DNA from: a virus
Taxonomy: Duplodnaviria; Heunggongvirae; Uroviricota; Caudoviricetes
Virus record (IMG/VR): IMGVR_UViG_3300019867_000001
Coordinates: 29,244 to 93,243 of that record
Length of the DNA: 64,000 nucleotides
Direction: 5' to 3' (one strand)
Position numbers and translations under genes: made by a program. The notes beneath the pieces were generated by a model that ran no database searches, had not been told where the DNA came from, and worked only from the letters and a program-made list of their open reading frames with translations. This document shows, in pieces, positions 2,398 through 55,874 of this stretch; position 1 is the first letter of the stretch; each line of letters begins with the position of its first letter.

Positions 2398-2403
2398 ATC
2401 AAT

Positions 2404-3205: not shown

Positions 3206-3219
3206 TTATATCTCCAATA

Positions 3220-3750: not shown

Positions 3751-3752
3751 TC

Positions 3753-4969: not shown

Positions 4970-4980
4970 AAGATTACCTT

Positions 4981-6171: not shown

Positions 6172-6181
6172 TTAAAATTCC

Positions 6182-6907
6182 TTATTGGTTTGAGGTACTC
6201 CTTAATTTGCCTTCTTCCGCTAATTTAAGAACTTCGGCTTGAGACAAATCGAAGAGTGATTTGGGTTTAGTTTTGGTAGATGGCGGTTTCCCATCATCAT
6301 CTTTTGTACCTGCGCCAGAAGAAGATTTCGGTTTAAATAAAAATGATTGTTCTTCACCTTTTGCAAAAGCTTCTACAAAGTCTTTGACTGAAATACCAGA
6401 GCGATGTATCCAAATACCTTTATCATTACGTGTAAGTTGGGCTACAACTTCTCTGTATGCCATTTCAGTAGCAGTATCATTCCTAAAGTTATAACCCTTA
6501 AGTGCATCTCGCACAGCAACATCACGGCTTAGTTCCGTGTTTCGCTTTTCAAGAGCTTCAACTTTTGCTTGTTGCTCAGCAAGCTTTAATTCATATACTT
6601 CTTTATGCTTGCCTTCTTCTTCAAGTCTTTTCATATGTGCTTCACGCTCTTTAGTTTCAAAATCAGCGATCTTGACAAGAGCTTCATCACGAGACTTATA
6701 ACTAGCATCAAGCTTGGCTTTAATACTTGCTAACTTAGTATCGAGTTCCTTTTGAACACGTTCTTCAACGATACTCTTTATTAAGTCTTCATCTTTTGTT
6801 TTATCATCTTTACTTAGCCTTGCTGTAGCTTCTGCACGAGCAACTTCTTCAGCAACTCTAGCAGCTTCTTCATCTTCTACAGCTTTAATTTCTTCTGGTG
6901 TAGCCAT
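6182..6907 (-). CDS. capsid scaffolding protein
   Basis: 241 aa, highly charged with a predicted coiled coil (EE/KK/AE repeats). Immediately upstream of the capsid gene. Confidence 0.55.
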   Translation of the reverse strand: MATPEEIKAVEDEEAARVAEEVARAEATARLSKDDKTKDEDLIKSIVEERVQKELDTKLASIKAKLDASYKSRDEALVKIADFETKEREAHMKRLEEEGKHKEVYELKLAEQQAKVEALEKRNTELSRDVAVRDALKGYNFRNDTATEMAYREVVAQLTRNDKGIWIHRSGISVKDFVEAFAKGEEQSFLFKPKSSSGAGTKDDDGKPPSTKTKPKSLFDLSQAEVLKLAEEGKLRSTSNQ

Positions 6908-6940
6908 AATATTTCCTTATTCTAAACACAGTTTAGCACC

Positions 6941-7711
6941 TCAAACACAGTTTGGGGATTTGCCTAAGAATTTCATTTCATGTTCGTTACAATAACGCCT
7001 AAAAGCAGCTTCATGTAACTCATTGGGTAACATCCCAATACCATGACCTATTGTACCACCTTTCCACGAACCCTTACGTTTTCCTGTTTCTTTAGTAAAA
7101 CGTAAGTCTAAACTACGAGAAATTTTATTTGATTTAAATAATGATAACCATTTAAACCATTTATCTCCAAAAGCCCATTCTCGTTTTTCAATATGAGTTA
7201 TAACTTCTATTTCTTCATTATCAAAATCAAGAAATTTAAATTTTACTTTTGGTATTAAGTCTTCTTTATCTTGTCGAGCTTTCCAATTCATATGCGTATC
7301 TTCAGTATATAGAAATTCACCTTGTAGACCGTAATAACTAAGTCTTATAAATCTCCATTGTGTCCAAGGTAAGAAACAACTCCAATGCTGTTCAGTGCTT
7401 CTACCAAAATAGATACTAAGATGGCCACTACTTAAAAGAAATCCATAATCACGTTTAGTATATGCAATATAGTAATTACGACCTAATCGTTCTATGGTTT
7501 CATCATCCCATTTAGGATATACTGTTTTTGTTTCAGGATAAATAATCAGTGGTAATTTAATTGCAATTCTAAACCAATAAGCATATATTATTAATTTACA
7601 ATCTGGTTTATCGTCCTCACCATTACCAGATGTAATCCAAATACCAATAGGATTCCAGTTTGTTAGCTTTTCTATTTCGATAATAGAATTTTTAAGTGTT
7701 AACGTATTCAT
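6941..7711 (-). CDS. hypothetical protein (Trp-rich)
   Basis: 256-aa ORF between the RNA polymerase genes and the scaffold gene. No recognisable motif. Confidence 0.3.
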   Translation of the reverse strand: MNTLTLKNSIIEIEKLTNWNPIGIWITSGNGEDDKPDCKLIIYAYWFRIAIKLPLIIYPETKTVYPKWDDETIERLGRNYYIAYTKRDYGFLLSSGHLSIYFGRSTEQHWSCFLPWTQWRFIRLSYYGLQGEFLYTEDTHMNWKARQDKEDLIPKVKFKFLDFDNEEIEVITHIEKREWAFGDKWFKWLSLFKSNKISRSLDLRFTKETGKRKGSWKGGTIGHGIGMLPNELHEAAFRRYCNEHEMKFLGKSPNCV

Positions 7712-8526: not shown

Positions 8527-8796
8527 CAGTGTGTTAAATAGAATTCGTTAGATTCTATCGGTATTGCGCCAAGTATTAATTTGCTTGGCGCGCAACTCCT
8601 GCATGTTACCATGCAGCTCAGACTATCTCTTATAAGAATACTGTCAAGTATTCAAATCTCCATGTTTCAGACCTACTTAGGCCTTACAGGTTTCATAATC
8701 CGTTCTGGATTGTATACCTTAGTCGTTGCACCTTCAAACCTATTCCTAGGTAAGCTTGGCTCAGGATTGTCCTATAACGATAGGAGTTTCCCTGAA
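8527..8796 (-). mobile_element. group I intron-like element (family A, no ORF) in the RNAP gene
   Basis: Non-coding block between RNAP motif-B and motif-C exons. Carries the family core (plus strand): atgcagctcagactat..., tagtcgttgcaccttcaaac, cttggctcaggattgtcc. Boundaries approximate. Confidence 0.45.
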
Positions 8797-9870
8797 TTAA
8801 TGGAGTTTATTCACAGCAAAGTATTTACTGTGATTTGCATTTACAGCATAAGCAGTACGTGCCTTACCAGTATCTGCAATGCTATTAATCTTTCCATCTT
8901 TGTTTATAAGTTCTTCCCACCATGTTGGATCAGTTTTTTGTGCAATTTGAAGTATATTAGTAACCCATTTACCTTCTGCATCTTTATAATTAAGTCTTTC
9001 TTCAAATACTTGAGTAAAGTTCTGTTCTATTATCTTACCATCAAAATTCACACTTGGAACATTGACCCAATTCTTTGGCATTTTATTTGCTATACCTATT
9101 TCTAATTCAAATAGCTTTTTAATTTGAAAAGGTTCTAATTGCAACATCTTAAAACCAGTAAGTCTATCTTTAGGTGCTTCTACACCATAAAGCATTTGAG
9201 CTAAAGTACTATCAGGCTTATACCAACCCATTTGCTTTAATACTTTCTCACTTAAAACTTCATCTTTCCAACCAAGCATTTCACTTATACGTTTAGGTAA
9301 TTTATAACCAGCCTTTTTAGTACCAAGAACTTTAGTTTTAAGGAACTCGACGTAGTCAATATCACTTTCTTTAGGTTTAGCATTAATCATGAAATCTTCA
9401 GCTAGCCTACCGTGAAAACGTGTAAATTCACGTAATACAGGTACTTGAGATTCCAAGTTTTCAGACATAATCTGAGCTATTAATTGGAAGTCTTTGGGTG
9501 TTACTCGTTTCTCATAAGCACCAGACATCTTTTCAACTAAATCTAAAGTTTTGCTGTCTAGAAAGTATAACTCTTCGAGTACATCATCGCCTGGAACTTG
9601 ACCTTTATTAAATATATCTTTTACATCTTGACGTAATGCAAGTAATTCTTGATGCATTTCAGGATCCCATTTTTCGTATCGAGCAGCACGAGCAGAGATT
9701 TCTGAGAGGATTTTATCGCGGTCTTTGGAGTTTACTACAAGTACGCCTTCTTGTTTATCTAAAGCTTTTGCAAGTTTTTGTTCTACATTAAGTATTCCTG
9801 TACGTTTTCCTGCACCATATCGAAATGTTAAATAGAATTCGTTAGATTCTACTAATTTTCTACAAAGCAA
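8797..9870 (-). CDS. single-subunit RNA polymerase, exon with motif B
   Basis: KPDSTLAQMLYGVEAPKDRLTGF aligns with T7 RNAP motif B (KRSVMTLAYGSKEFGF). The ORF ends read into intron sequence on both sides. Confidence 0.55.
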   Translation of the reverse strand: MLCRKLVESNEFYLTFRYGAGKRTGILNVEQKLAKALDKQEGVLVVNSKDRDKILSEISARAARYEKWDPEMHQELLALRQDVKDIFNKGQVPGDDVLEELYFLDSKTLDLVEKMSGAYEKRVTPKDFQLIAQIMSENLESQVPVLREFTRFHGRLAEDFMINAKPKESDIDYVEFLKTKVLGTKKAGYKLPKRISEMLGWKDEVLSEKVLKQMGWYKPDSTLAQMLYGVEAPKDRLTGFKMLQLEPFQIKKLFELEIGIANKMPKNWVNVPSVNFDGKIIEQNFTQVFEERLNYKDAEGKWVTNILQIAQKTDPTWWEELINKDGKINSIADTGKARTAYAVNANHSKYFAVNKLH

Positions 9871-10643
9871 TACTCAGGCATATTAACAGATTTTATTTTA
9901 TAACGTAAAGTTTCTCTGCAAATACCTAAAGCATTTGCAGCTTCCATTGTACTGTTAAATATACCAATCGGTGTTTTTACCTGTTTTCTATTACATGAAA
10001 TAGATCCAATTCTATTACTTTGTTTAGGAGGATCTAAGTAATAATATTCATCAGGATTTTCTAAACAACGCCTTGATACTGTTTTATTTGAAATACCATG
10101 CGCTGTTGATGCTGCACCTACATATGGAAATATACCTAATGGTGTTCTAATACGTCTACTCATACCATGATTCTCTTTACTTGCTGATACCATTTTTCTT
10201 ATACTACCTAAATCTTCAAAACCTTCTGTATGTCTTCTAATAATGTCCTGAAATGTACTTGCTGGAATTTTATGTGCTTCTGCTGCATCAAGATATGTTT
10301 TAAATATACCTAAAGGGGTTTTTACAGCTTTACATAACATTCCATATTTATTCATTGCATTATTTGAAGATCTAATCTCAATTTTATTTAATATATAATT
10401 AGATTTATTAGCACGCATCATAAAAAATGCCATTGCCATTTCAGGGCTGTTATGAATTTTAAATAATAACCAATGTGCTAACAAATGTTGTCTACCTGTT
10501 AAATATATTAAATTTGATTTATCATTATTACCACCTAAAGCTTTAGGTATAATATGATGACGTTCATAACCATTAGTATTAATAGGTCTATTTACAAATC
10601 CATATTTTTGTAATAGATTATTATAGTGTAACTTATAATTCAT
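9852..10643 (-). CDS. HNH homing endonuclease with three NUMOD3-like repeats (intron-encoded)
   Basis: HNH motif ERHHIIPKALGG...NLIYLTGRQH. Three K/RTPLGIF...A(A/E)A...GI repeats. Lies inside the intron between RNAP motif-A and motif-B exons, and overlaps the downstream exon start. Confidence 0.6.
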   Translation of the reverse strand: MNYKLHYNNLLQKYGFVNRPINTNGYERHHIIPKALGGNNDKSNLIYLTGRQHLLAHWLLFKIHNSPEMAMAFFMMRANKSNYILNKIEIRSSNNAMNKYGMLCKAVKTPLGIFKTYLDAAEAHKIPASTFQDIIRRHTEGFEDLGSIRKMVSASKENHGMSRRIRTPLGIFPYVGAASTAHGISNKTVSRRCLENPDEYYYLDPPKQSNRIGSISCNRKQVKTPIGIFNSTMEAANALGICRETLRYKIKSVNMPEYCFVEN

Positions 10644-11217
10644 TTAAGTTTCCTATATTTGCTTTGTTAAAATTCTACATATTCCTATGCAGTCCAGACT
10701 ATATCATCAAGCAAAAGATAAACTTAATTTATCAATTGTTTGTCGGGCGCTTCGATAGGACTTCCTATCTACTTCCTTTCGGAATAGTCGTTGCACCTTA
10801 AAACAAACCATTGTACCATATTTCATGGTACTATAGTAAGTAATCTTGGCTCAGGATTGACCGTTCTGGTGTTCCCCTGAATTCACCCGATTTTCGATGC
10901 ATATTACTATGCAAAGCCTCTATAAGTTAAAGGTGACCATATTTTGCCGTAAATGTTCAAATCTGTTCGTTACTCAGATTCGGTTTAATAATAAACTTCT
11001 ATTAATAAACACCTGCATGTCACCATGCAGCTCAGACTATATCTTCAAACAAAAATTACTTATTTTCGAATGTCCCGCGTTTCGACTGGACTACCAGTCT
11101 ATGGGTTTCATCTTCTGTTCTAGAAGGTATACCCTAGTCGTTGAACCTTCAAACTCATTCCTGAGTAAGCTTGGCTGCTGATTGACTCGTGTGAGCGTTT
11201 CCAGCAATTAACGGGAT
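9871..11217 (-). mobile_element. group I intron-like region with two tandem family-A cores (10681-10920 and 11021-11217) plus HNH ORF
   Basis: Both cores carry cagactatatcatca / tagtcgttg(c/a)accttcaa / cttggctc(ag)gattg blocks. The 100-nt spacer between them has stops in all frames. Could be tandem introns, a twintron, or a degenerate duplicate. Confidence 0.4.
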
Positions 11218-11640
11218 TTAGGCAAGACACAAAGAATTTATCTTGCTTGCCTTACGGAGGTCTTTTTCCGTAAGGCCTAACTTAACATTTAATTCTCGAA
11301 ATCTTGGATCATTAAATGTTAATGCAGCTATCTGATCATATAGACGCTTTTTATGATCAGTAGGGATCACATTACTTAACTCTGCTAACTGTTTGTTTTT
11401 AGTAGTAAGCGCTATGATCTGCGCACCACTACTTGATGCATCTTGCTCTAAGGCTAATGCTGTTTTATATGAATTAAGCTTTTCAAGTGACTTGACAGAG
11501 TAATTACCTTCTAAATAATTATCTATTTTAGCTGTTTCTTGAGCCAAACGTAAGACTTTACCTATATCTTCGGCATCAACATTTGCAAGGAATTTAGAAT
11601 CCAATATTGCGCGTATATCATTTGGTTTACCTTTAAGCAT
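11218..11640 (-). CDS. single-subunit RNA polymerase, exon with motif A
   Basis: MLKGKPNDI... aligns with T7 LAKGKPIGK. ALEQDASSSGAQIIAL aligns with T7 motif A (LAFDGSCSGIQHFSAM). Confidence 0.55.
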   Translation of the reverse strand: MLKGKPNDIRAILDSKFLANVDAEDIGKVLRLAQETAKIDNYLEGNYSVKSLEKLNSYKTALALEQDASSSGAQIIALTTKNKQLAELSNVIPTDHKKRLYDQIAALTFNDPRFRELNVKLGLTEKDLRKASKINSLCLA

Positions 11641-12805
11641 ATGATTGCCAATATCAACTAAGTCTTTACGCCAATATTGAGCTATTTGTTGTCTTCCAGT
11701 GATAGAAAGTGAATTGTATTTTAATTCGTATGAGTCATCTAAGCCGCCTAAGAATGCCCCAATTTGATCTTGAAAATTAGCAAAACCGGGTATTCCAAGA
11801 ATTTTCGATTCTTCAGTATTTAAAAACGGTCTACATTTATGTTCAAGTATATTCGCTAAATATACTCAGGCTTATCAGGCATTTATTAATAATTCTTCCA
11901 AGATCTTCCTTGTTTTATTCCACTAATTGTACCAGAATGAACTTTAAATTTTTTTGCAATATTAGCAAGGCTAATTCCATCAAGAAGCATTTGTCTTATA
12001 ATAGGAATATCTGTTACTGTTAATTTTTTTATAATTCCAACTTTATCAAAAACAGGTCGTTTTATATGTTTCCAACTAATTCCAACACGTATTTTATAAA
12101 TAGAAGAATGTACAATATTATATATTTTTGCTATTTCAATATCTGTACAACCATCTTTAATAAGTTCTATTATATCAAGAACATCAGATTCTTTTAATAT
12201 AGATTCAGGTCTATCCTCACCTTTACAACTACAATTATTAGTAATACCATGTTTATAATTATCAATAAGACTCATCCATTCTAAATTATTATAATTATTA
12301 TTAAGTTTATTACAATCTTTATGATTAACAGTTAAACCTTCAACATACCCATCTACAAAGGCTTTTGCAACAAGTCTATGTACAGTGCGTGTATTTAATT
12401 TACTGTCAAAAAATAAACTTATCTTTAAGTAACCCCTTTCAGTAAGTGATTGACTTAAGATATAATCATATTTATTTTTAACACGTCCTAATGAACTGAT
12501 TTCATACGTTGTATCTTCTATTTGTTTCCATATTTCTTCCATTTTACACCTAAATGTTGTGCCTGATAGCACTTCTGCAATTTCGTTTCCTTATATGCAG
12601 ATCAGACTATATCATCAACCCATAAAGGTTGTCGCGCGCTTCCACTAGGCTTCTAGTGTACAGACTTCATAATCCTTTAACAGGATCGTATGTCTTAGTC
12701 GTTGCACCTTCAAGAGTATTACTACTCAAGCTTGGCTCAGTATTGTCCTTGCGAGGATATCCACTGAATTCACGCGATTTTCGATGTATATTACTATACA
12801 AAGCG
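11641..12805 (-). mobile_element. group I intron-like element (family A) carrying an HNH endonuclease gene
   Basis: Family core at 12590-12805. The T7 alignment runs continuously across the junction (…GETLIS | MLKGKP…), so about 1.17 kb must be removed. Confidence 0.5.
11886..12572 (-). CDS. HNH homing endonuclease (NUMOD4-like N-terminus, C-terminal HTH), intron-encoded
   Basis: EEIWKQIEDTTYEISSLGRVKN resembles NUMOD4. HNH core VNHKDCNKLNNNYNNLEW. C-terminal GISLANIAKKFKVHSGTI looks like a helix-turn-helix. Confidence 0.55.
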   Translation of the reverse strand: MLSGTTFRCKMEEIWKQIEDTTYEISSLGRVKNKYDYILSQSLTERGYLKISLFFDSKLNTRTVHRLVAKAFVDGYVEGLTVNHKDCNKLNNNYNNLEWMSLIDNYKHGITNNCSCKGEDRPESILKESDVLDIIELIKDGCTDIEIAKIYNIVHSSIYKIRVGISWKHIKRPVFDKVGIIKKLTVTDIPIIRQMLLDGISLANIAKKFKVHSGTISGIKQGRSWKNY

Positions 12806-13282
12806 TCAAGAAATTAACGTTTCCCCTGATTGAACACCGATAAGTCCACGTTCATAAATCCTAGCTCTATGATCCAAAAATGGATGATTACTAAAAGCAT
12901 AATTATTCTTTCTTAACCACTCCATCGCCTTAAGTCGTTCATAAGAATCTCCACGTTCAATCATAAACTCACGATAACGATTTAAGTCATTGTAGTATTG
13001 AGCTTTACCTTTATCATCTTGAAAATTAAGCAATTTACCTATAAAATCATGAAATTCAGGGTCTATTTTATACTTAGCATTTGCTGTCCAATTAAGAGCA
13101 TCAGTCATGTCTTTATCTATTAGCTTGGTAGGAAAATTCTTAAAGCTATCTGTTGATGTTAAAGGTATCTGTGTATCTCTGTTTTTATAATCAAAATAAG
13201 TTTTATAGCCTTCACGTATTTTAAGTCTATTCTTATCATCTACTACGCTTACTCTTAATCCTAATTCAATTTTTCGTTGCAA
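12806..13282 (-). CDS. single-subunit RNA polymerase, exon with T/DxxGR motif
   Basis: NNYAFSNHPFLDHRARIYERG aligns with T7 ANHKAIWFPYNMDWRGRVYA. The coding frame stays open upstream into 13283-13450. Confidence 0.55.
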   Translation of the reverse strand: MQRKIELGLRVSVVDDKNRLKIREGYKTYFDYKNRDTQIPLTSTDSFKNFPTKLIDKDMTDALNWTANAKYKIDPEFHDFIGKLLNFQDDKGKAQYYNDLNRYREFMIERGDSYERLKAMEWLRKNNYAFSNHPFLDHRARIYERGLIGVQSGETLIS

Positions 13283-13672
13283 TTTAGAATACTCTTGAAT
13301 TCGAGGATCGACAATTCTAAGATTAACTGAGAATGTGTCGTAGTACGGACCCGTTTTGTTAGATGGTCTTCGTTAAAGATCATCAAATGCTTGCCATTTA
13401 TTTCTCTATGTGTTGTGCTGGCAAGCACTTCTGCAATTTCAAAAATAAACTCATTTAATTATATGCAGACCAGACTATATCATCATCCTATTACTAGGAT
13501 GCTGCGCGCTTTGAGCAGACTTCTGCCCTATGGACTTCATCGTCTGTTCTAGACGGTATGTCCTAGTCGTTGAACCTTCGAACCTGTCCCCAGGTAAGCT
13601 TGGCTGCTGATTGTCCTGAAAGATTTTTTAACGAAAAATCTTATAGGATGTTCCAGCAATTCACGCAGTTAT
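13283..13672 (-). mobile_element. group I intron-like element (family A) with a decayed endonuclease-gene start, between MuF gene and RNAP exon
   Basis: Family core at 13451-13672. Its 3' tail (gaaattgcagaagtgct…aaataaATGgcaagcatTTGA) is homologous to the region preceding the HNH ORF at 12572, but here the ORF stops after 4 codons. The 5' family sequence extends into the last codons of the MuF ORF. Confidence 0.4.
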
Positions 13673-16600
13673 TCAATATACATTACTGTATAAGGCTTCA
13701 TTTAAAAAGTATCTTCTGCCTACTCTACTCTTCATTCGTCGTTTTTGTACACCATAAGTTTCTAATTTATAAATACCCTTGTCATCTGCAACATCCAGAA
13801 GTTTTACGCCTAGTTCAAACCATTCTTTTCGGCTACCTCTATAATTAGCCATATTATAAAGATCACGACCTAAACTAACAGCGAATTGATCTCTATCAGG
13901 CATATCAGCTAATGAAAGCCTATGGGCAAACTTTAAGTAAAATTCTGATAAATCACGGTCTGTTAGACTTAAAAAGTTTTTCTTTAGAGGCAATTTTGGA
14001 TCAATAAAAACCCTACCTAAAACTCCTCTTAACTCTCTTGCAATTTTAGGCGCAGTAGTATTTTCCCAAGTATTTCGCTTTTGTATATTCTCAAGAAAGT
14101 TATCATGTAAATCTTGTAATTGGACTGGTCCTAAAACTGGATCAATGTAATTTTCTTGCTTCAGCTTGAAAAGTAAATTAGCATCTTTGCGTATTTGTGT
14201 TTCAATGTAATCAGACACATTCATTACATCAAATTTCATTTGTCCATTTAGAACAGCTTTTAAATTAGCCCAAGGTATTTTGTTTTCACGTGCTCGTTGA
14301 AATATAATCCTTAAATTATCCGTTATAACAGCACGTTGATTAGTACCCATATGACCATCAAGGTCATCTACAAACTTAAGTATAAAGTCTTTATCTTTAG
14401 GTAGTAATACCTCTGATTCTTCTACTAGTCTTTTAGTATTCTCTAATACCTGCATATTTGGTTGGTAAATCCTTGCATCATCATACCTACCAGTAAAGGG
14501 ATTATACTTCAAATTATCTTCAGTAGGCGGTGAACTTAATACTCTAATTTTAGTATTACGTTTATTATGTAATAATGTACCCCTATAATTAGTAAGCGAA
14601 AGCATTCCATCCAACTCACCATCCTGTAGCAAATAATACTCTTTAAGTGCTTTTTGAAATTCTTTAGATTCTAAAATTTCATCAGGACGTGCTGCACCAA
14701 GTTTAAGAGTATCAAGTTTTTCTTTAGCTAATGCAAATCTACGTGTATCTCCTGGTAAAGCATAACCTGGATCTGTAAGTTTACGGAGTTCCTTAATACC
14801 TATTGAATTGCCTTCATCATTAGTAAATTTATCAAGAGTTAATTGTCCACTTCTGAATACTTCAAGTTTTTTGATATCTCCTAAATGCCTTAACTGAACT
14901 TCTGATGCTTGCCGCGTCAGCCATTCATTATAGGATTCCTTTAATGGAGACTGCCCATCATAAAATGCAATTTGCTTATCAGTTAATCCTTCGAGATTCC
15001 GTTTACGTATTTGGGCTATCCCTTCAAGTTCACCTAGTTGCTCATAGCTTTTTACAATCGGTATAGTAGAGGATCTACAATTACTACCCCAAATTATCTT
15101 ACCATTTCTTTTAGTAAGCAATGTATGCTTATCAGCTAATTCTATATCATAAACTTTGTATAGGCCATCACATTCAACTATAATAGTAGCATCCGTTAAC
15201 CTTCTATATTGACTTCTATTCCAAGCAATATGATAAACTAAATAATTACCATCAATTGTATCTCCATTTTTCTTTATAACAAAACTTGGAAGTCGTTCAT
15301 AAACACTTGCTGAATCCCCAACTTTAATTATAAGTTCACATAAATCTGCCATTAATTGTTTTGAAGTAGTAAAAAATTTTCTTACTAGATTTGAAGTATA
15401 TCCTTCAAAATCAGATTGTTTAACAGAAGTACCATCTCCTAACAAGTATGCTTCAAGAAAAACTAATAAATCACTTTTAGGTAAATTTTTAATTTCTTTT
15501 GGTATATACTTTTCAGTACATTTTCCAAATTTTAATAACCAATTATTTAAATTTTGATCAACAAAACCTAATCCAGTTTGACGATTAGATGGGTTTAATT
15601 CTTTTAATTCTTCTAACATTAATTGTTTATGTGTATACTGCGAAATACAACAATCAATGTAACCTTTATTTTTAATTGATACAGATCCATCCGATAACCA
15701 CCAAGCCATAAATTTACAAAATATAGAAACAGATGGAAATTCAAAATTATTTACAATTATTTTATCTATACTTTTGCCTATCCACTTAGATGATGCAAAC
15801 ATTCTAAAATCAACTTTAGGCGGTATATCTAAAATTGAATTATAATATTTTGGTAAATATTCTTTATAATTGCCTCTATCAACCCTCTTTTGTCCTATGA
15901 AAGGATGATCTGCAGTTACTGCGATGTCGACTGAAAATGCTTTTATAAAAATTATCTCTTCAACTTCTTTTTCAAATTTAGTTATAATTGGTTGCCAAGT
16001 TAAGTCTTCAGTTTCAGGATCTAAAGATAAACATTTTTCATTTATAATTGTATCTTTAATTAATTTAAATCCATTTTCAGTCAATACTTCTGTATCTTCC
16101 AGGTAACAGAAAAAGTGACTGGGCGGGAGATGACTTGTATCACTTATTGGGTACACAGTGCCATCTCGATGAGCACAAAGTGGCGTTGTTCTGCTATCCA
16201 ATACAGCAACATATTGCCATCCTTGTAATGCTTTTTCATTAACTTTATAAACTTCGTGATCTGTTTGAGCGTATACACTTGTAATAGCAGTAGTAACTAA
16301 GCCTTGAGATTGGTTCTTTGTTATTTTAAATATACTACCTTTACGTACATTTAAGGCTATTTCTTCTTCTGTAAGTCCTTCTGCTAATCCTTTACGTATT
16401 AACGATTCAATCCTAATCTTCTCACCTTTAGCAATACTATTCCAGCCTTGAGCTAGAGTTTGATTGCTATAAATTGGACGTGATAAAACTATATCCTCAG
16501 CTATCCTTCGAGTAGGCTTAGAAGTATGCCAAATTTTGCCTAAAGACGCATCTAAACTTTGATATGTATACGAAATTTGATCTCCAACTAAATCAAGCAA

Positions 16601-49788: not shown

Positions 49789-50018
49789 TATCTAAACTCC
49801 AATTCTAATCCTTTTATTTCAGCTTTCATAAATTGATGCCATTGATATTCTAATGTACCATCTATTTCTTTATTTTCTATATATAACTTTTTACCATTTA
49901 GAATTTTAATTTTAGCTTCCATTAAATACCAACCATTATCATTATAATGATTAATTTCTGTTTCTGAGAATACTTCTGTTAGGCGTTTCATCTTACAGGA
50001 CACACTCCAGTTGAACAA
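49788..50018 (-). CDS. hypothetical protein
   Basis: 76-aa ORF overlapping the RNR exon-2 end. Confidence 0.2.
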   Translation of the reverse strand: MFNWSVSCKMKRLTEVFSETEINHYNDNGWYLMEAKIKILNGKKLYIENKEIDGTLEYQWHQFMKAEIKGLELEFR

Positions 50019-50872
50019 TCATCTAATCCCTCAAACTCTGCATAGTTTAACATTGTAATTGGTTTTACTGTAGCAATAAGTTTATCATATTCTTCTTTAG
50101 TAATCTCTTCATATGGTGCTTGTGCAAATCCATGTTCTGAATGTAATAAAAATGATAAAGTTTTATAGTTATCTTTATAATGCGCTGTTAAATACTCTTT
50201 GATTTCTGGTAATTCTTCTTTTTTATAGTATACTGTACATGATACTGAATTATCACTCCAGAATTCTTGCAGCTTCTTGATTTCTTTTAATTGATCTATT
50301 GCTGTCATATCTTTAGCAAGTTTAGTCCCTTCAGGATACATAAAGGGAAATGTTACAACTACTGTATTATAATCTTCAGAACCATCAAAGTTCCGTTGGT
50401 ATTCTACGGGGTATCCATGTAATTTGCAAATATTAACGAGTTCATGTTCTGCTGATATACGAATACGTCTTAGCATATGTGATGAAAACCCTGGATGAAT
50501 TCCAGGCGAAACTCCTGGTAAAAGGGATAAGGAACCCGAGGGCTGTACCGTAGTCAATTTAATTGACTTGTTAAAACCGTGAAGTTCCGAATAACGCTTG
50601 TCGTAATCACGTATATGCTCATAACCTTCATTTAACCATGAAAGCTGCTCTTGTGATGCTTGCATAATTCCAGTTAATGAAATACCCATTCTTTGATTTT
50701 TCTTTACAATTGCCTCAGTTTCAGGATGATGACATGGTAGCTGAAGTGAATGTTTACTTATACGATAAAGTAGTGTTATAAGATCTATGAATTCTTCTTG
50801 ATTTGCTATATTTGGAAGAAATACAGTACTTAACGTACAAGTTTCCATTGGAGCTAAACTTTGTTCTGCACA
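49988..50872 (-). CDS. nrdJ: class II (B12-dependent) ribonucleotide reductase NrdJ, exon 2
   Basis: Begins …CAEQSLAPMETCTLSTVFL, i.e. the second half of the NPC(G/A)E radical-Cys motif plus the C(N/T)L motif. The first 14 codons of the ORF (to 50914) are intron sequence. Confidence 0.6.
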   Translation of the reverse strand, partial: CAEQSLAPMETCTLSTVFLPNIANQEEFIDLITLLYRISKHSLQLPCHHPETEAIVKKNQRMGISLTGIMQASQEQLSWLNEGYEHIRDYDKRYSELHGFNKSIKLTTVQPSGSLSLLPGVSPGIHPGFSSHMLRRIRISAEHELVNICKLHGYPVEYQRNFDGSEDYNTVVVTFPFMYPEGTKLAKDMTAIDQLKEIKKLQEFWSDNSVSCTVYYKKEELPEIKEYLTAHYKDNYKTLSFLLHSEHGFAQAPYEEITKEEYDKLIATVKPITMLNYAEFEGLDDCSTGVCPVR

Positions 50873-51130
50873 CTGCTTTGTTACTACAAAACACAAAATA
50901 CAAGTATTTTGCATTAAGTGGTATAGTCATTTCTGCTATACTCTATGCATCCCTGCATAGCACGGACTGTATCATATACCAAACTGAGGAATTTGGTACT
51001 CCTTGTCAGTCTCTAGCGCCTCTTGATTATAGGGACCATAATCAGAATTGCGTCGGGATTGTCTGTTCTAGAGTTTCCCCGATATTCGGATTTTCGAAAG
51101 AGATTACTCTCTTAAGCCCCAATGTTGTTT
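50873..51130 (-). mobile_element. group I intron (family B, ORF-less, about 258 nt) in nrdJ
   Basis: Splits the NP|CAEQ motif. Exon 1 ends …AAC CCU (U before the splice site). The intron ends in G. It contains GGGGAAAC (P4-like), GCUAGAGACUGACAAGG (R-like) and AUGAUACAGUCCG (S-like). Confidence 0.5.
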
Positions 51131-53293
51131 AGGGTTGTATCCCATAACTTCAGGATCTGGATATTCTATCTCTCCAAGTCTTCCAATTTCTCTCGAGAGG
51201 CGCAAGTTAACGATACCAATGGGTTCACCCTTATTCTGATAGGTATCCCAGAAGTATTCGTGAAGATTTGAAATGTCTTCACACACGACGGAATTATTTG
51301 ACATTGCCCTGTGAGAGGGCACGTGCGATAAATCAAATCTTTTAGCCAGTAGGCATTCGATATCGTCTTCGTCAAATAAAGCAAGTTGTGCTGAGTTATG
51401 GGTAAGATATCCTTCACAAAAGAACTCATTCATTGTCTCCACTTCAATGTCAAAAGTTTCGATAGAACGGCCTTTTTCAATACCTACAACTTTAACTGGA
51501 AGTAAGTCTGGATATTCACCAGTTAAATCTGTAAATTTGCGTATTGCTACTTCTCGATTATATCCTCCAGAATTTAAAGTAAATCCATGACTTGTTAACC
51601 AGCCTTGCAAGTAGGTATTTGTATAGCAATCACGAGTTCCTTTTCGCATTATTTTACAAAGTTGCGGTACTTTATGAAATACATCTTTAACATAATCATT
51701 TATAATATCTACTTCATATGTATCTTGTTTGTTAATTTCTTTACTTACGAATGGTCCAGCTAACCTAGTTTCTAATCCACATGAATAACACAATAATTGA
51801 ACAGATTTTGCGAATTCAGGATATATTGTAGTTACTAGTCTAACTGGTGTATGATTTCTGGAACCATCTGTATCAAATATACCTGCAAGATATGCTAATT
51901 TAATTTCTTGTTTGCTATTAATTATCCAATTTGGAATTATAATTGGTGTATTTGGTTGTTTTATGTACTTATAGAAGTATCTTGCAAGTTCTATTGAATG
52001 CGAGTTTATGCGTATTGATGCTTGTCTGTCATCATGCCTGGTCGAAACATTAAAACCAAAACGTTTAAACTGTTCTTCTGTAAATATTATTTCTTTTATA
52101 TCTTTATCATTAAATTCAATTGTAATATGCCCATTACTTTTACCTTCTTTGTGCAGATATACATACCCATTTCCATGAAATACTCCAATTAACCAAGCAA
52201 GATCTGCATCTAATACTGGTGTAATTTCAAGTCCTTCAGGTAATTGTGTTTCTGTACCTTCTATTGGAATTCTTGATGTAATTAATCTATCATCAATTTT
52301 AAGCTCTTGTGCTTCTTTCCATTTATACTCATCAACTCCAGTCATTACTGCCATTTTATGATTCGGTGTACATTCAAATGAACCGTCTTGTGTTTTAATG
52401 ATAATAGTTTCTTGAATGCCTTGTGCAAATTTATTTATTACCTTATGATAACCTTCAGATGTTAATACTTCTTCTCCTATTTCTATATCCTTAATAGTCG
52501 TAAGTCCTCCTTTATAAAATATTTTGGATGTTTGTGGTATACAACGTCTTACATTGCCCGCGACAATGACTTCACCAATTATATTCATCATATCTAAACA
52601 GTCAATTGGACGTACTTTTCTGCCTGCACGTTTAAGTAAAACGTTACTAATCTTGTTTATCCCTACAACTAAGGCTTCAGGGCCACTTGAAGTACCACCA
52701 AAACCCTTAATTGGTAATCCCTTTCCACGTACAACTTGTGTAGAATAAGTAAAGCTGCCTTTATCCTTCCTTTCTGAAAGAAAGGCTGCTTTAAGTGTCT
52801 TAGCAAGAAACCTAACCCAACCTTCTCTAGAGTCTGGTATAATAAAATCAGCACTGCCATTGTCTATTCTAGTTGGTATTTTAAACCAGTCTCTTACAGC
52901 AGGTATCTTATTGACATGTTCTCGTTGTATATTGTATCCAACTCCTGCGCCTAACGCTAACATATCCATTGTCCAAGTAAATGGCACAATGGGTTTATCA
53001 ACTACCGTAAATGCACAGTTCTGTAAACTAGCTAAACCAAACCTATTAACTGTATCAGTTCCAAGTTGCCACAGGAATCTGCCCGCAACAGAACCTTTAA
53101 GAGAAAGAAAATAATACCTGAGTCTTTCTTCTTCTTCTTTTGTAAATTTACAATTTAATTGTTGATTGCACGCAGTAATTACTCTTTCTATTGTTTCAGG
53201 AAACTCTTCAGTTCGATCAGACCCTTCTATTACACGACTATATGTTCGTTTATAAGTGATATATCCTATCGATGACCAAGGTGTATTAATCAT
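51131..53293 (-). CDS. nrdJ: class II ribonucleotide reductase NrdJ, exon 1 (contains intein)
   Basis: Exteins give …VIVAGNVRR|SAQLALFDEDD… and …EVMGYNP. The ORF's last 8 codons (KQHWGLRE) are intron-encoded. Confidence 0.6.
51395..52543 (-). mobile_element. intein with LAGLIDADG endonuclease in NrdJ (residues 251-633)
   Basis: N-terminal CIPQTSKIFYKGG. Block B TPNHKMAV. LAGLIDADG motifs LAWLIGVFHGNG and LAYLAGIFDTDGS. C-terminal …CEGYLTHN followed by extein Ser. Confidence 0.6.
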
Positions 53294-53816: not shown

Positions 53817-55874
53817 TCATTGAATTCCAAAAGTATCTTTTACAGGAATAGCTTCAATAGCAAGTAGTCTACCAGTTGCATAGTCATACCAGACACCTTG
53901 AACTGGACCTGTTAGACCTGAAGTTCTTGCTTTTAAAACTGACATTTTAATTGTATTACGTTCTAATCCCTCTTCAGCTAACATATTTCGAGCAAATGCA
54001 ACTATATCAAAGCTAATTTGCTTAATTGAGCCAGATCCTTTTATATCATCAACACTAGGTAAACGACCTTCTTCAAATGACTTGCCACCACTTGGTGATT
54101 TACGTAAATGTGATACAAGACCAATCCATACTGGATACCTTTTGACTAGCCTTAGTAAATCATTCATTATTTTATCAATTGCAGTGTTTCCACTTAGTTC
54201 TTCTGCACCTTCAGATACAAGAATTGTTATGTGATCAACAAATATATACCTACAACCGACTAAACACATATATTCTAATTGATCTATTATACTACTATCC
54301 TTAATAGAACCTTGGTGATCTAGTAGTATAACACGATCATCATTAAAAACTTTGTCAAATCCAATTTTAAGGTCATCTATTGGAATTTCTTCATTTGATG
54401 GATTTCTAAGTATAGTCATTCCTGCAAGTTTTCGTGCATGTTCTGCAGGGGATTCTTCTAAACTGACAACTCCAATTTTATCTTTAGTAACAAGTAATAC
54501 ATGTAATTCAATTTCACGTATAATAGAACTTTTACCACTATTATGGGTAACTATAAAATTACCCAATACGAACCTGTTATTACCATCTGTACTAAAACCA
54601 TAAAAATTATCTTCTTCTAACCATTCAATTTCAAAAGAATACTGCGTATATAAATCTGATTTTGAGTATTTAAAAGCTTTTGATTTACATTTTTGTTCAT
54701 ATGGCAATAAATCATAATCTTTAAGTTTTATATCTATAATTTTATTATTTATAATTATAGAAATGATATGCGAACAATTACATATAAATCCTGTACCGTC
54801 TTGTAATTTAATATGGGCCATCTGTTCTCTTCCGCTAAATAATGAAAGAACAGTTCGAGGTGTACCATCATCACCCATAATACAATCATTTACTTTAATA
54901 TTTTCTATTAATTCTTTATCTCCATTCGCCATTAATACTTCAGTGCCTCTCCCAAAGCAACCTGTACCAGAAATAAATAAAGTTATTTCTCCTTCCCGCA
55001 TACCCTTAAGCTTGCCATTTAAACCTTCAAGGCATGCTGGATATGGTACTGGTATCACTTTATTTAATTCGGATAATTCTTTCCATAGCTGTTCTTTGCC
55101 AATAATACCTGCTGGTTGCCATGGTATAGCATCCCAGATTAGATATAGTAACTTTTCTGGACCTAATTGAGTTAGCACCTCACTTGCGTCTTTTAAGCTA
55201 GGCTTCCATATTTTAGCCTTATCAATACCAACGATTTTAAGTGCTCGTTGTGTTGCATCCTCTCCTGCCTTATCATTATCAAGACATAAGACTACTTCAT
55301 CAAATCCACGTATCCATTCTCGATGCTCTAAAAGAGATTTTGTCTCGGTTGCTGAAGATATTGAGATTACAGGATAAAATTGTTTATATTTCTCCCAATT
55401 AGCTTGACTTACAGCTAATGCATCAATTTCACCTTCAGTAATTACTAATCTCTTACCACCTGTACTGAATTTATTTAAGCCAAAGAGACCACCTGGTGTA
55501 CCAATCCAACTAAAGATTTTAGGTAGCTTGCGATGTTTATATCCTCCATTACTATAAGGATAATAATGATCAGTTATTATTCCATCTGTATCACATTTTA
55601 CCTTAACATCAAAAAATTCACAAACATGTTTCTCTATTTGTCGTTCTCTAAAGCCACGACTTTTTAATGCTTTAATACTATCAATTACATTAATATTAGG
55701 AAATGCTTTTAATTCTATTTTAATTTCTTCTGTTTCAACAGCTGTTTTATCAGCTTTAAAGTATGTTTTACAACTAAAACAATACGCTGTATTGTCTTCA
55801 TATATTTGCATCGCATCAGAACTACCACAGGTAGCGAGATAGCAAGCTTGATTTTTTAATTTAATCTGACTCAT
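53817..55874 (-). CDS. DNA primase-helicase (T7 gp4-like) with mini-intein in the P-loop
   Basis: N-terminal Zn-ribbon (CYLATCGS…CFSCK). Primase/TOPRIM-like region (EGEIDALAV…LDND). Helicase Walker A ISGTG|…|SGKSS once the intein is removed; this aligns with T7 TSGSGMGKST. Confidence 0.6.
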   Translation of the reverse strand: MSQIKLKNQACYLATCGSSDAMQIYEDNTAYCFSCKTYFKADKTAVETEEIKIELKAFPNINVIDSIKALKSRGFRERQIEKHVCEFFDVKVKCDTDGIITDHYYPYSNGGYKHRKLPKIFSWIGTPGGLFGLNKFSTGGKRLVITEGEIDALAVSQANWEKYKQFYPVISISSATETKSLLEHREWIRGFDEVVLCLDNDKAGEDATQRALKIVGIDKAKIWKPSLKDASEVLTQLGPEKLLYLIWDAIPWQPAGIIGKEQLWKELSELNKVIPVPYPACLEGLNGKLKGMREGEITLFISGTGCFGRGTEVLMANGDKELIENIKVNDCIMGDDGTPRTVLSLFSGREQMAHIKLQDGTGFICNCSHIISIIINNKIIDIKLKDYDLLPYEQKCKSKAFKYSKSDLYTQYSFEIEWLEEDNFYGFSTDGNNRFVLGNFIVTHNSGKSSIIREIELHVLLVTKDKIGVVSLEESPAEHARKLAGMTILRNPSNEEIPIDDLKIGFDKVFNDDRVILLDHQGSIKDSSIIDQLEYMCLVGCRYIFVDHITILVSEGAEELSGNTAIDKIMNDLLRLVKRYPVWIGLVSHLRKSPSGGKSFEEGRLPSVDDIKGSGSIKQISFDIVAFARNMLAEEGLERNTIKMSVLKARTSGLTGPVQGVWYDYATGRLLAIEAIPVKDTFGIQ
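54540..54959 (-). mobile_element. mini-intein (about 140 aa, no endonuclease domain) in helicase Walker A
   Basis: Residues 306-445: CFGRGTEVLMANG … FVLGNFIVTHN, followed by S. Confidence 0.5.

What the first reader, a model, noticed from the sequence alone, without database searches (positions are those of the whole stretch)
49988..53293. Class II RNR gene carrying both a LAGLIDADG intein and an unrelated ORF-less group I intron that interrupts the NPC(G/A)E radical-cysteine motif
- **Intein.** Removing residues 251-633 restores GNVRR|SAQLALFDEDD.
- **Intron.** Removing 50873-51130 restores …GYNP|CAEQSLAPMETCTL…, the class II catalytic Cys motif.
- **Splice-site features.** The 5' exon ends in U and the intron ends in G. 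P4-like GGGGAAAC and R/S-like elements are visible.
- **Distinct lineage.** The core sequence is unlike the family-A introns.

Two different kinds of selfish elements target the two most conserved sites of one enzyme.
Basis: partly seen in the sequence, partly recalled or inferred. Interest (0 to 1): 0.65.

Follow-up and report, generated by a model that had tools for sequence, protein, structure and literature searches.

The report
Phage RNR gene with intein and intron
A phage gene for a B12-type (class II) ribonucleotide reductase is interrupted by a protein-splicing intein and, 88 codons later, by a small self-splicing group I intron placed just before the catalytic cysteine codon; this is real, but it is a new example of a known phenomenon.

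Summary
Removing 50873-51130 (258 nt) and precursor residues 251-633 (383 aa, DNA 51395-52543) gives a 632-aa protein, not about 550 aa. It aligns colinearly with the Lactobacillus leichmannii monomeric class II reductase 1L1L (E 5e-77) and with uninterrupted alleles in about 17 contigs (60-74% identity).

The intein has C1, TPNH, THN|S and two LAGLIDADG motifs; the first motif has Asn where the acidic residue is expected.

The intron has a U.G pair at the 5' splice site, a terminal G, and helices P1-P9. Standard annotation would miss it: RF00028 scores 41 bits against a threshold of 50, and only in a targeted scan. Its compact core lacks P7.1/P7.2, so it differs from the window's five other introns.

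Orthologous genes in other viral contigs carry other introns, contiguous inteins and a split intein within 4 nt of the same Cys codon. The window's intron sits 1 nt upstream of most related introns, and its guide sequence matches its own exon. It looks mosaic, with a core from one relative and periphery from another.

Precedents exist (SPbeta nrdE, Twort nrdE). Verdict: genuine, a new member of a known kind, moderate interest.

The parts
52544..53293 (-). Exon 1, first part: N-extein, mature residues 1-250, ending ...VAGNVRR. It contains C93 (LQNCAF), the counterpart of the L. leichmannii redox Cys in LNNCWF.
51395..52543 (-). Intein, 383 aa, 43.9 kDa. Features: C1 (CIPQTS, 52526-52543); block B CTPNHKM (52352-52372); LAGLIDADG motif 1 LAWLIGVFHGNGY (52163-52201, Asn where the acidic residue is expected); motif 2 LAYLAGIFDTDGS (51860-51898); block F TFDIEVE (51419-51457); block G GYLTHN followed by +1 Ser (51392-51412).
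   Evidence: Allelic inteins at the same site: L023 (50% identity) and P0001/L273 (49%). Homologous site in another RNR family: P0002-P0005 (37%).
51131..51394 (-). Exon 1, second part: C-extein residues 251-338 of the mature protein (SAQLALFDEDD...EVMGYNP). The last four bases, CCCU (51134-51131), form the exon strand of P1.
50873..51130 (-). Group I intron, 258 nt, with no ORF of its own.
- Guide sequence GGGG: 51120-51117.
- P2: 51112-51099. Its GUAA loop supplies the in-frame stop (51106-51104) that ends the upstream ORF.
- P3: AUCC 51091-51088 with GGAG 51002-50999.
- P4: 51082-51078 with 51057-51053.
- P5: 51072-51062.
- P6: 51052-51017.
- P7: GACUG 51011-51007 with CAGUC 50969-50965.
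- P8: 50998-50976.
- P9: 50960-50943, with a GGGA loop.
- P9.1: 50941-50921, followed by further 3' hairpins.
- Terminal G: 50873.
49988..50872 (-). Exon 2: mature residues 339-632 plus the stop codon. It starts with C339 (radical Cys, NPCAEQ) and contains C350 (METCTL) and the C-terminal pair C624/C629 (CSTGVCPVR).

Best explanation
This is one functional phage gene for a monomeric, adenosylcobalamin-type (class II, RTPR-like) ribonucleotide reductase. It needs two successive self-catalysed removals.

**1. RNA splicing.**
- The 258-nt group I intron folds, and its guide sequence GGGG pairs with the exon end CCCU (U.G at the splice site).
- An external guanosine attacks after U51131.
- The freed exon then attacks after the terminal G50873.
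- This joins CCU to UGU, giving Pro338-Cys339.

**2. Protein splicing.** The spliced mRNA encodes a 1015-aa precursor.
- The 383-aa intein excises itself: acyl shift at Cys1, transfer to the +1 Ser, then cyclisation of the terminal Asn.
- This rejoins ...GNVRR to SAQLAL... and yields a 632-aa enzyme with the radical Cys339.

**3. Mobility (inferred).**
- The intein's LAGLIDADG domain is the remains of, or still is, a homing endonuclease.
- The intron has no endonuclease gene. It is either immobile or moved passively, for example by co-conversion during repair events nearby.

**Shown here:** sequence anatomy, junction restoration, and conservation and covariation of the ribozyme and intein blocks.

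**Inferred:** actual RNA and protein splicing, enzyme activity, and endonuclease activity.
For: - **Junctions.** The spliced product is colinear with 1L1L over both junctions and with uninterrupted alleles in about 17 contigs.
- **Ribozyme, database support.** RF00028 gives a full-length match at E 4.4e-9 in the targeted scan.
- **Ribozyme, unprompted fold.** RNAalifold on the window intron plus L064 and L020 recovers P1 (with U.G), P2, P4, P5, P6, P7, P8 and P9 without guidance. 16 of 48 pairs show compensatory changes.
- **Ribozyme, hand alignment.** In a hand-built core alignment of 8 introns, 99.7% of cells pair, 31 of 38 pairs show double changes, and 0 of 500 shuffles reach that. P7 changes A-U to G-C in the window only.
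- **Fold stability.** z-score -4.95.
- **Exons.** 632 codons are intact, with C93, N337, C339, E341, C350 and C624/C629 all present.
- **Intein.** C1, TPNH, THN and +1 Ser are invariant across six allelic or homologous inteins. Pfam LAGLIDADG_3 scores 36.8 bits against a cut-off of 22.5.
- **Related alleles.** They carry introns and inteins at the same places, which shows that these sites tolerate such elements.
Against: - **No expression data.**
- **Rfam.** The score is below the curated threshold (41.1 against 50). The intron is not reported in whole-window scans.
- **Weak helices.** P3 is only 3 standard pairs plus an A.G mismatch, and P5 is 3 bp. P10 is at best 3 bp.
- **Intein Pfam scores.** Intein_splicing scores 31.9 bits, below its cut-off of 35.8.
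- **Endonuclease motif.** LAGLIDADG motif 1 has GNG where two homologues have GDG. The endonuclease may be inactive.
- **Alignment bias.** The 8-intron alignment was picked by hand on the basis of pairing, so its statistics lean towards the structure.
Confidence: 0.85

Rival explanations
1. The gene is decaying. The intron, the intein or both have lost activity, and the reductase is no longer made. In this phage the gene is a graveyard of selfish elements, as has been suggested for Campylobacter phage nrdA.
For: - The Rfam score is below threshold.
- P3 has a mismatch and P5 is short.
- The intron has no endonuclease gene.
- LAGLIDADG motif 1 lacks the acidic residue.
- Dwivedi et al. describe degenerating, intein-ridden phage RNR genes (PMC3653736).
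Against: - There are no stops or frameshifts in 632 exon codons or 383 intein codons.
- All catalytic and redox residues and all splicing residues are intact.
- Every core helix is present, with compensatory changes relative to relatives.
- The closest core relative, L064, reaches the Rfam threshold.
Confidence: 0.08
2. The gene is split and there is no RNA splicing. The 729-aa and 308-aa ORFs are translated separately and associate non-covalently, as in the Aeh1 NrdA-a/NrdA-b or phiYS40 nrdJ-a/nrdJ-b arrangements.
For: - Split phage RNR genes that still function are documented (PMC3653736).
- The downstream ORF has its own ATG at 50914.
Against: - The break falls between Pro338 and the radical Cys339.
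- The first 14 residues of the downstream ORF and the last 8 of the upstream ORF are encoded by ribozyme helices.
- No Shine-Dalgarno-like sequence precedes ATG 50914.
- The intervening 258 nt has a complete, covarying group I fold. That would have no reason to be conserved under this model.
Confidence: 0.04
3. The intervening RNA is spliced, but at boundaries other than 51130/50873. For example, use of the G three bases upstream would add a Gln before the Cys.
For: - AAG|CAG is also in frame and ends in G.
- P10 is weak, so it does not fix the 3' site.
Against: - NPC is unbroken in 1L1L and in all 13 uninterrupted alleles whose site sequence was printed.
- The 3' ends of the related introns align flush with G50873 (GTAACAAAGCAG / GTAACAAAACTG / GTAACAAAAAAG).
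Confidence: 0.03

Closest known systems
[quoted passage not shown] 1998, as summarised in PMC3653736)
   Same: One phage ribonucleotide reductase large-subunit gene interrupted by a group I intron and by an in-frame intein coding sequence, both in conserved regions. It needs RNA splicing and then protein splicing.
   Different: SPbeta's gene is class Ib (NrdE), not the monomeric class II enzyme. The host lineage and insertion sites differ, and the elements are unrelated in sequence (no DNA match).
Staphylococcus phage Twort nrdE and T4 nrdB/nrdD/td group I introns
   Same: Small phage group IA-type ribozymes inserted next to functionally important, highly conserved codons of nucleotide-metabolism genes (PMC3653736).
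   Different: From my own knowledge, the T4 introns have the P7.1/P7.2 extension. The window's five other introns also have it, but this intron does not. The host gene class and the site also differ.
Inteins at the radical-Cys site of class I/II RNRs, for example Thermus phage G20c RTPR (KX987127) and the split NrdA/NrdJ inteins of Dassa et al. 2009 (PMC2677866)
   Same: The insertion point is the same: directly N-terminal to the thiyl-radical Cys, between the Pro and Cys codons. In G20c the sequence GLNP is followed by CLTGDTLV...CAEILL. Dassa et al. call this the most frequent RNR intein site. Locus L038 has a split intein there in a related class II reductase gene (38-51% identity).
   Different: At that phosphodiester the window carries a ribozyme, not an intein. 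Its intein sits 88 codons upstream, at GNVRR|S.
Unannotated group I introns in class II RTPR genes of Roseobacter phage CRP-7 (MK613349) and Rhizobium phage RHph_N3_13 (MN988507)
   Same: A group I intron splits a monomeric class II reductase gene of a phage close to the active site. GenBank annotates only two partial reductase ORFs.
   Different: Those introns are the P7.1/P7.2 type (RF00028 79-84 bits). They carry an ORF and sit 11 codons downstream, after the second active-site Cys (..QFC|NLTE).
Orthologous nrdJ alleles in IMG/VR, JGI and Logan contigs (L014/L032, L015/L033, L016/L034, L018/L023, L037, L273)
   Same: - Same gene family (60-74% identity), with an intron at the same Pro-Cys junction.
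- L023 and L273 also have the allelic intein at GNVRR|S.
- The 5' (P1-P2) and 3' (P9, P9.1, tail) parts of the window intron are most like the L018 and L037 introns.
   Different: - Five of the six are inserted 1 nt further downstream, after the first base of the Cys codon (CCG U|GU, guide GCGG). L273 appears to share the window's site.
- Their cores are of another type: either P7.1/P7.2 or a LAGLIDADG_2 gene in that position. The compact-core model does not hit them.
- The window's core is closest to the L064 intron, which sits after the Cys codon of a different RNR gene (90/106 identities).

Membership tests
Group I intron | P1 helix between the 5' exon end and an internal guide sequence, with a U.G wobble at the splice site | tested here: met
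   Exon CCCU|AA pairs with UUGGGG (51120-51117 and neighbours). The U.G pair is invariant in 8 of 8 related introns, and the other P1 pairs covary with each host exon.
Group I intron | Terminal G at the 3' splice site; excision restores the reading frame | tested here: met
   G50873. CCU+UGU gives NPCAEQ, matching 1L1L and all 13 uninterrupted alleles whose site sequence was printed.
Group I intron | Conserved catalytic core: P3-P8 with a P3/P7 pseudoknot, the P4-P6 domain, and J4/5, J6/7 and J8/7 in canonical order | tested here: met
   All helices were located in canonical order. RNAalifold recovers P4, P5, P6, P7 and P8 unaided. P3 is weak (3 pairs plus A.G). Covariation: 31 of 38 pairs (hand alignment).
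Group I intron | Match to the Rfam model RF00028 at its gathering score | tested here: not met
   41.1 bits against 50. E is 4.4e-9 in a 601-nt scan, and the intron is not listed in whole-window scans. The relatives sit at the edge of the model too: L064 scores 50.5 bits, and L020 and L063 are not found. I read this as a sensitivity limit of the model for this compact subtype, not as evidence against membership.
Group I intron | Guanosine-dependent self-splicing | not testable with these tools
   Needs in vitro transcription with GTP labelling, or RT-PCR.
Phage IA2-type introns (the type of the window's five other introns; T4-like by my own knowledge) | P7.1/P7.2 extension between P7 (5') and P3 (3') | tested here: not met
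   Only 4 nt (ACAA) lie between GACUG and GGAG. In the four of the five other window introns whose alignments were printed, the insertion there is roughly 33-53 nt. The core model R1 scores those five at 15.5 bits or less.
Intein (Hint domain) | Nucleophile at position 1, block B TxxH, C-terminal His-Asn, and Ser/Thr/Cys at +1 | tested here: met
   C251, T309-P-N-H312, H632-N633 and S634 of the precursor. All are invariant in six homologues.
Intein (Hint domain) | Excision restores a conserved, colinear host protein | tested here: met
   VAGNVRR|SAQLAL against VAGNVRRSAELAL in 1L1L. As read from the printed alignment, this is the longest identical run in it.
Intein (Hint domain) | Pfam Intein_splicing / Hom_end_hint at curated threshold | tested here: inconclusive
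   Intein_splicing scores 31.9 bits against 35.8. Hom_end_hint scores 16.6 against 32.1. Sequence homologues with the same architecture reach 1.9e-100.
Intein (Hint domain) | Protein-splicing activity | not testable with these tools
   Needs expression and detection of 72-kDa and 44-kDa products.
LAGLIDADG homing endonuclease (double-motif) | Two LAGLIDADG motifs, each ending in a catalytic acidic residue | tested here: not met
   Both motifs are present (Pfam LAGLIDADG_3, 36.8 bits). Motif 2 is FDTDGS. Motif 1 is FHGNG, with Asn where P0004 and P0005 have GDG. The fold family is met, but catalytic competence is doubtful.
Class II (monomeric, RTPR-type) ribonucleotide reductase | Homology to L. 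leichmannii RTPR, including the class II insertion domain | tested here: met
   1L1L at E 5e-77 over the full length in 3 colinear stretches. Pfam RNR-II_ins_dom scores 43.4 bits against a cut-off of 27, and RNR_Alpha scores 36.3 against 26.4.
Class II (monomeric, RTPR-type) ribonucleotide reductase | Radical Cys in NPC.E, a redox Cys pair, and a C-terminal Cys pair | tested here: met
   C339 (NPCAEQ), C93 and C350, and C624/C629 align to the corresponding 1L1L residues. The role assignment comes from my own knowledge of RTPR.
Class II (monomeric, RTPR-type) ribonucleotide reductase | Adenosylcobalamin-dependent nucleotide reduction | not testable with these tools
   Enzyme assay needed.

The most novel reading that the evidence does not exclude
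The window's intron may be a natural example of a group I intron that was retargeted, or that 'slid', by one nucleotide and was rebuilt by recombination.

**Site shift.**
- The window's intron sits between the Pro and Cys codons (guide GGGG on exon CCCU).
- Five related introns in orthologous genes sit after the first base of the Cys codon (guide GCGG on CCGU).
- Its closest core relative sits after the Cys codon of another RNR gene (guide GCAG on CUGU).
- The partial contig L273 appears to share the window's site (guide GGGA on UCCU).

**Mosaic build.** The core resembles one relative (L064). The P1-P2 and P9-tail regions resemble the others (L018, L037).

**What it would mean.**
- Ribozyme cores and peripheries would be exchanging among introns that compete with each other, and with inteins, for one 4-nt hot spot at the radical cysteine.
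- Guide-sequence change, possibly through reverse splicing, would set the exact insertion point.

**Weak extra hint.** All three alleles that carry the GNVRR|S intein also carry an intron 264 bp away (3 of 3, against 4 of 18; Fisher p = 0.026, not corrected for relatedness). This could mean that the ORF-less intron hitch-hikes on intein homing.
Probability: 0.3. Interest if true: 0.55.

Novelty: new member of a known kind. Interest (0 to 1): 0.36.

Why it matters
- **Annotation.** Default Rfam scanning misses the intron, so the gene would be filed as two partial reductase ORFs. Two isolated phages in GenBank (CRP-7, RHph_N3_13) already show that pattern, with unannotated introns. Phage class II reductase counts and 'split gene' calls in metagenomes are probably affected.
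- **Biology.** The case adds the monomeric class II reductase of an uncultured phage group to the list of RNR genes that act as refuges for introns and inteins.
- **Hot spot.** The phosphodiester in front of the radical cysteine codon, already known as the commonest RNR intein site, is also used by at least three kinds of group I intron at positions 0, +1 and +3.
- **Use as a test system.** These alleles form a compact natural system for asking how selfish elements choose and share sites, and whether ORF-less introns move by guide-sequence change or by hitch-hiking.
- **Limits.** It does not change what is known about how such elements work.

Tried and rejected
- **Search for a described phage.** Megablast of the gene against 50,697 phage records found no match. 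blastn of the intron found only 35-40-nt core matches in Providencia and Klebsiella phages. No described close relative was found.
- **Exact-pattern scans of IMG/VR.**
  - Two core patterns gave mostly chance hits. After filtering they yielded only L063 and L064.
  - The splice-junction pattern gave only chance hits.
  - The P9 pattern gave L020, L024/L025 and L023.
- **MAFFT alignments of full introns.** They misplace L063 and parts of the window row. I therefore used loop-trimmed, equal-length cores. This makes the pair counts partly circular.
- **A simple sliding model for the 1-nt shift.** I considered a shift of both splice sites within an unchanged sequence and rejected it. The window needs one base fewer in the 5' exon and one more in the 3' exon than the phase-1 alleles, and its intron does not begin with U.
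- **Recent homing from an L018-type donor.** Unlikely. The window's exon flanks resemble uninterrupted alleles (QSLA, CCT) and not the CCG...QGL flanks shared by four of the five phase-1 alleles (L037 has CCG but QTL).
- **Search for further hidden compact-type introns in the window.** None found.
- **Papers I could not read.** Lazarevic 1998 and 2001, Derbyshire & Belfort 1998 and Landthaler 2002 were not held. They are cited only through Dwivedi 2013.
Full report
**1. What is in the sequence**

All genes in this part of the window run on the minus strand.
- Two adjacent ORFs, 51104..53293 (729 aa) and 49988..50914 (308 aa), carry reductase domains.
- The first ORF has RNR_Alpha, the class II insertion domain RNR-II_ins_dom, LAGLIDADG_3 and Intein_splicing.
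- The second ORF has the C-terminal barrel domain Ribonuc_red_lgC.

Read on the minus strand:
- The upstream frame runs ...GGA TAC AAC CCT and then continues for 8 codons to a TAA.
- The downstream frame contains ...AAG CAG TGT GCA GAA CAA....
- Cutting out 51130->50873 (258 nt) joins Pro to Cys and gives GYNP|CAEQSLAPMETCTL.
- Cutting out precursor residues 251-633 (DNA 51395-52543) gives GNVRR|SAQLALFDEDD.

The product is 632 aa (71.9 kDa), the intein is 383 aa (43.9 kDa) and the precursor is 1015 aa. The estimate of about 550 aa was wrong.

**2. Are the junctions right?**

- The 632-aa product matches one solved structure, the Lactobacillus leichmannii ribonucleoside-triphosphate reductase 1L1L (E 5e-77).
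- The alignment runs straight through both junctions: VAGNVRRSAQLAL/VAGNVRRSAELAL and GYNPCAEQSLAPMETCTL/GTNPCGEISLANGEPCNL.
- The closest records among isolated or deposited phages are uninterrupted genes: MW202701 (64%) and Maribacter phage Panino (56%).
- IMG/VR and JGI metagenome contigs supplied alleles at 60-74% identity. About 17 contigs, several with identical alleles, align as one segment across both sites.
- All 13 uninterrupted alleles whose site sequence was printed read AAY CCN TGY GCN GAR at the intron site.
- C93, C339, C350 and C624/C629 correspond to the redox, radical and C-terminal cysteines of RTPR. The roles are from my own knowledge.

**3. The intron**

*Database detection*
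- Rfam at gathering thresholds finds five group I introns at 8599-13716 but not this one.
- A whole-window scan at E <= 0.01 does not find it either.
- A targeted 601-nt scan gives a full-length RF00028 match, 51140..50943, at 41.1 bits and E 4.4e-9.
- The strand folds much better than shuffles (z = -4.95).

*Anatomy*
- P1: CCCU|AA with UUGGGG, U.G at the splice site.
- P2: a GUAA-capped hairpin whose loop provides the in-frame stop.
- P3: AUCC/GGAG.
- P4: UCGGG/CCCGA, with J4/5 GAAAC.
- P5: UCU/AGA.
- P6: CGC/GCG, with a long extension.
- P7: J6/7 CUAGA, then GACUG/CAGUC.
- P8, then J8/7 UAUGAUA.
- P9: a GGGA loop, followed by P9.1 and further hairpins.
- Terminal G at 50873.

*ORF content.* It encodes nothing of its own. 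Neither mechanical ORF that overlaps the intron most (109 aa on the plus strand, the C-terminal ORF's own 308 aa) has an endonuclease domain, and the third (58 aa, 50754-50930) was not scanned.

*Comparative support*
- Pattern scans of viral contigs recovered relatives:
  - L064: 190 nt, in another RNR gene of a 305-kb contig.
  - L020 and L063: in other genes.
- RNAalifold on the window intron plus L064 and L020, with no guidance, returned P1 (U.G), P2, P4, P5, P6, P7, P8 and P9. 16 of 48 pairs kept pairing through double changes.
- A hand-built, loop-trimmed alignment of eight introns, including the P3/P7 pseudoknot, gave three results:
  - 99.7% of cells paired.
  - 31 of 38 pairs had double changes.
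  - None of 500 shuffles, and none of the slid controls, came close.
- I chose the strands in that alignment by pairing, so the figure is an upper bound.
- The one non-pair in that alignment is the window's A.G in P3.

**4. Is it a different lineage from the window's other introns?**

Yes, at the level of the core.
- In the four of the five other introns whose alignments were printed, the insertion (P7.1/P7.2) between P7 and P3 is roughly 33-53 nt. This intron has 4 nt there.
- Crude global identity is 0.45-0.65 to those five, against 0.72-0.75 to L064, L020, L018 and L037.
- A covariance model built from the trimmed cores of the window intron, L064, L020 and L063 hits only this intron in the window (56.5 bits, by construction). 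It scores the others at 15.5 bits or less.
- RF00028 is at the limit of its sensitivity for this subtype. L064 scores 50.5 bits, and L020 and L063 are not found at all.

**5. The intein**

- C1, block B (CTPNHKM), block F (TFDIEVE) and GYLTHN|S are present. They are invariant in the alignment with five homologues.
- Only five homologues exist in the 5.8-billion-protein collection:
  - One is in the same gene family (P0001, 49%).
  - Four are in a different RNR family, inserted at the homologous place: TGGGRR|C...THN|SAH, 37%.
- The IMG/VR contig L023 carries a further allelic copy (50%).
- Both LAGLIDADG motifs are present. Motif 1 reads FHGNG where P0004 and P0005 have GDG. Motif 2 is FDTDGS.
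- From my own knowledge of PI-SceI-type enzymes, loss of that Asp usually abolishes double-strand cleavage. Splicing competence therefore looks intact, and endonuclease competence is doubtful.

**6. The surroundings in sequence space: a hot spot**

*The Pro-Cys junction.* Among orthologous alleles it is occupied as follows.
- L014/L032, L018/L023 and L037: introns of 807-839 nt carrying a LAGLIDADG_2 gene where P7.1/P7.2 would be.
- L016/L034: a 234-nt intron of the P7.1/P7.2 type.
- L015/L033: the same intron with a YunG-like ORF in the P6 loop.
- L038 (a more distant class II reductase gene, 38-51% identity): a split intein with a free-standing ORF (...VHN|CAEANL).

*Isolated Thermus phages.* G20c has a contiguous intein there (GLNP|CLTGD...|CAEILL). 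TSP4 and phiLo matched in two pieces but were not examined. [quoted passage not shown]

*The exact intron positions differ.*
- The five orthologous introns sit after the first base of the Cys codon: AAU CCG U|GU, guide GCGG.
- The window's intron sits one base upstream: AAC CCU|UGU, guide GGGG.
- The L064 intron sits after the Cys codon of another RNR gene: CCC UGU|GGU, guide GCAG.
- In every case the guide matches its own exon.

*The partial contig L273 (= P0001).*
- It starts an intron after AAU CCU with guide GGGA, giving a six-pair P1 of the same geometry as the window's. It therefore probably shares the window's position.
- The contig ends before the 3' splice site.
- L273 also has a further group I intron (83.6 bits) five codons upstream of the intein site.

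*Other multiply interrupted alleles.*
- L023 has three elements in one gene:
  - the allelic intein;
  - the endonuclease-bearing intron;
  - a second intein at ET|C that ends in THQ.
- L037 has a mini-intein at GFGGT|.

*Isolated phages with unannotated introns.* In CRP-7 and RHph_N3_13 the RTPR gene is annotated as two partial genes. Rfam finds a group I intron (79-84 bits) with an ORF, inserted after the second active-site Cys.

**7. Mosaic make-up**

- The window intron's first 39 nt (P1-P2-J2/3) are most like L037 and L018 (29/35 and 29/33 identities).
- Its last 92 nt (P9, P9.1, tail GUAACAAAGCAG) are most like L018 (44/51); L020 (30/37) and L037 (47/64) follow.
- Its core (P3-P7) is most like L064 (90/106).
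- The compact-core model does not hit the L014-L018 and L037 introns.
- The window's exon flanks look like those of uninterrupted alleles, not like the CCG...QGL flanks shared by four of the five phase-1 alleles (L037 has CCG but QTL). Recent endonuclease-driven homing from such a donor is therefore unlikely.
- Recombination between introns, retargeting through the guide sequence, or both would explain this. I could not decide between them.

**8. How it most likely works**

- Transcription is followed by guanosine-initiated self-splicing at U51131 and G50873.
- Translation gives a 1015-aa precursor.
- The intein excises itself through Cys251, Ser634 and Asn633.
- The result is a 632-aa monomeric class II reductase.
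- The in-frame stop in the P2 loop, 8 codons into the intron, would keep ribosomes out of the ribozyme core. This is inference.
- The anatomy and conservation are shown. Both splicing reactions, the enzyme activity and any mobility are inferred.

**9. Comparison with what is known, and verdict**

- Intron plus intein in one phage RNR gene is known from SPbeta nrdE. Introns next to catalytic residues are known from Twort nrdE and T4 (PMC3653736).
- The papers I could read list interrupted phage nrdJ genes only as splits or split inteins: phiYS40, P60 and the fractured NrdJ loci from the Global Ocean Sampling (GOS) data. None describes a group I intron in one.
- My literature access was partial, and public genomes already contain unannotated examples.
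- I therefore rate this as a new member of a known kind.
- The finding is correct and well observed. Its added value is threefold:
  - the annotation blind spot;
  - the population picture of a shared intron/intein hot spot;
  - the 1-nt offset with a matching guide sequence.

Noticed in passing
window 8599-13716 (minus strand): Five group I introns of the P7.1/P7.2 type (RF00028 67-98 bits) lie within about 5 kb, interleaved with ORFs that have HNH/NUMOD domains (9852-10643, 11886-12572). I did not identify which host gene or genes they interrupt.
   Followed up: partly
window 53817-55874 (minus strand): A primase-helicase (Toprim plus DnaB_C) contains what looks like a small intein inserted in the Walker A loop (...ISGTG|CFGRGTEVLMANGD...FIVTHN|SGKS). 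Pfam Hom_end_hint scores 77.6 bits. This would be a second intein in the window.
   Followed up: partly
L023 (IMGVR_UViG_3300037461_001104) 2208-7040; same as L018: An orthologous reductase gene carries three elements:
- the allelic intein at GNVRR|S (2961-4070);
- an 807-nt intron with a LAGLIDADG_2 gene at the Cys codon;
- a second intein at ET|C that ends in THQ instead of the usual HN.
   Followed up: partly
L273 (Logan SRR28201387 contig) 362-578 and 2076-2155: An orthologous gene fragment has a group I intron (83.6 bits) only five codons upstream of the intein insertion site. It then has the allelic intein, and then the start of an intron after AAT CCT, which appears to be the window's position. 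The contig ends before the 3' splice site.
   Followed up: partly
L038 (Ga0100403_1000762) about 3080-4000: A more distant class II reductase gene (38-51% identity) is broken at the radical Cys by a split intein (...LLSFE* / M...NILVHN|CAEANL). A free-standing 234-aa ORF with no Pfam match lies between the halves. This matches the 'fractured gene' arrangement of Dassa et al. 2009.
   Followed up: partly
L283 (Roseobacter phage CRP-7, MK613349) 1236-1446; L284 (Rhizobium phage RHph_N3_13, MN988507) 1230-1479: Two isolated phages have RTPR genes annotated as two partial genes. Rfam finds group I introns (79-84 bits) inserted after the second active-site Cys (..QFC|NLTE), each followed by an ORF. 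The records carry no intron annotation.
   Followed up: yes
L015/L033 2243-2759: This is the same intron as in L016, but with a 92-aa ORF inserted in the P6 loop. The ORF matches Pfam Phage_YunG-like and is not a recognised homing endonuclease.
   Followed up: no
L020 984-1205; L063 about 9620-9900: These compact-core group I introns have clear P1-P9 helices, but RF00028 does not report them even at E <= 10. This subtype is at or below the sensitivity of the Rfam model and its filters.
   Followed up: partly
L037 (Ga0315274_10023245) 4607-5023: A mini-intein of about 139 aa sits at GFGGT|...SHN|SGPE, in the conserved GFGGTxSGP motif. This is a third intein site in this reductase family.
   Followed up: no
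L024 1075-1321 and 1409-1628; L025: Two strong group I introns (76 and 91 bits) lie about 90 nt apart in one unidentified phage gene. One of them shares the window intron's P9 sequence.
   Followed up: no
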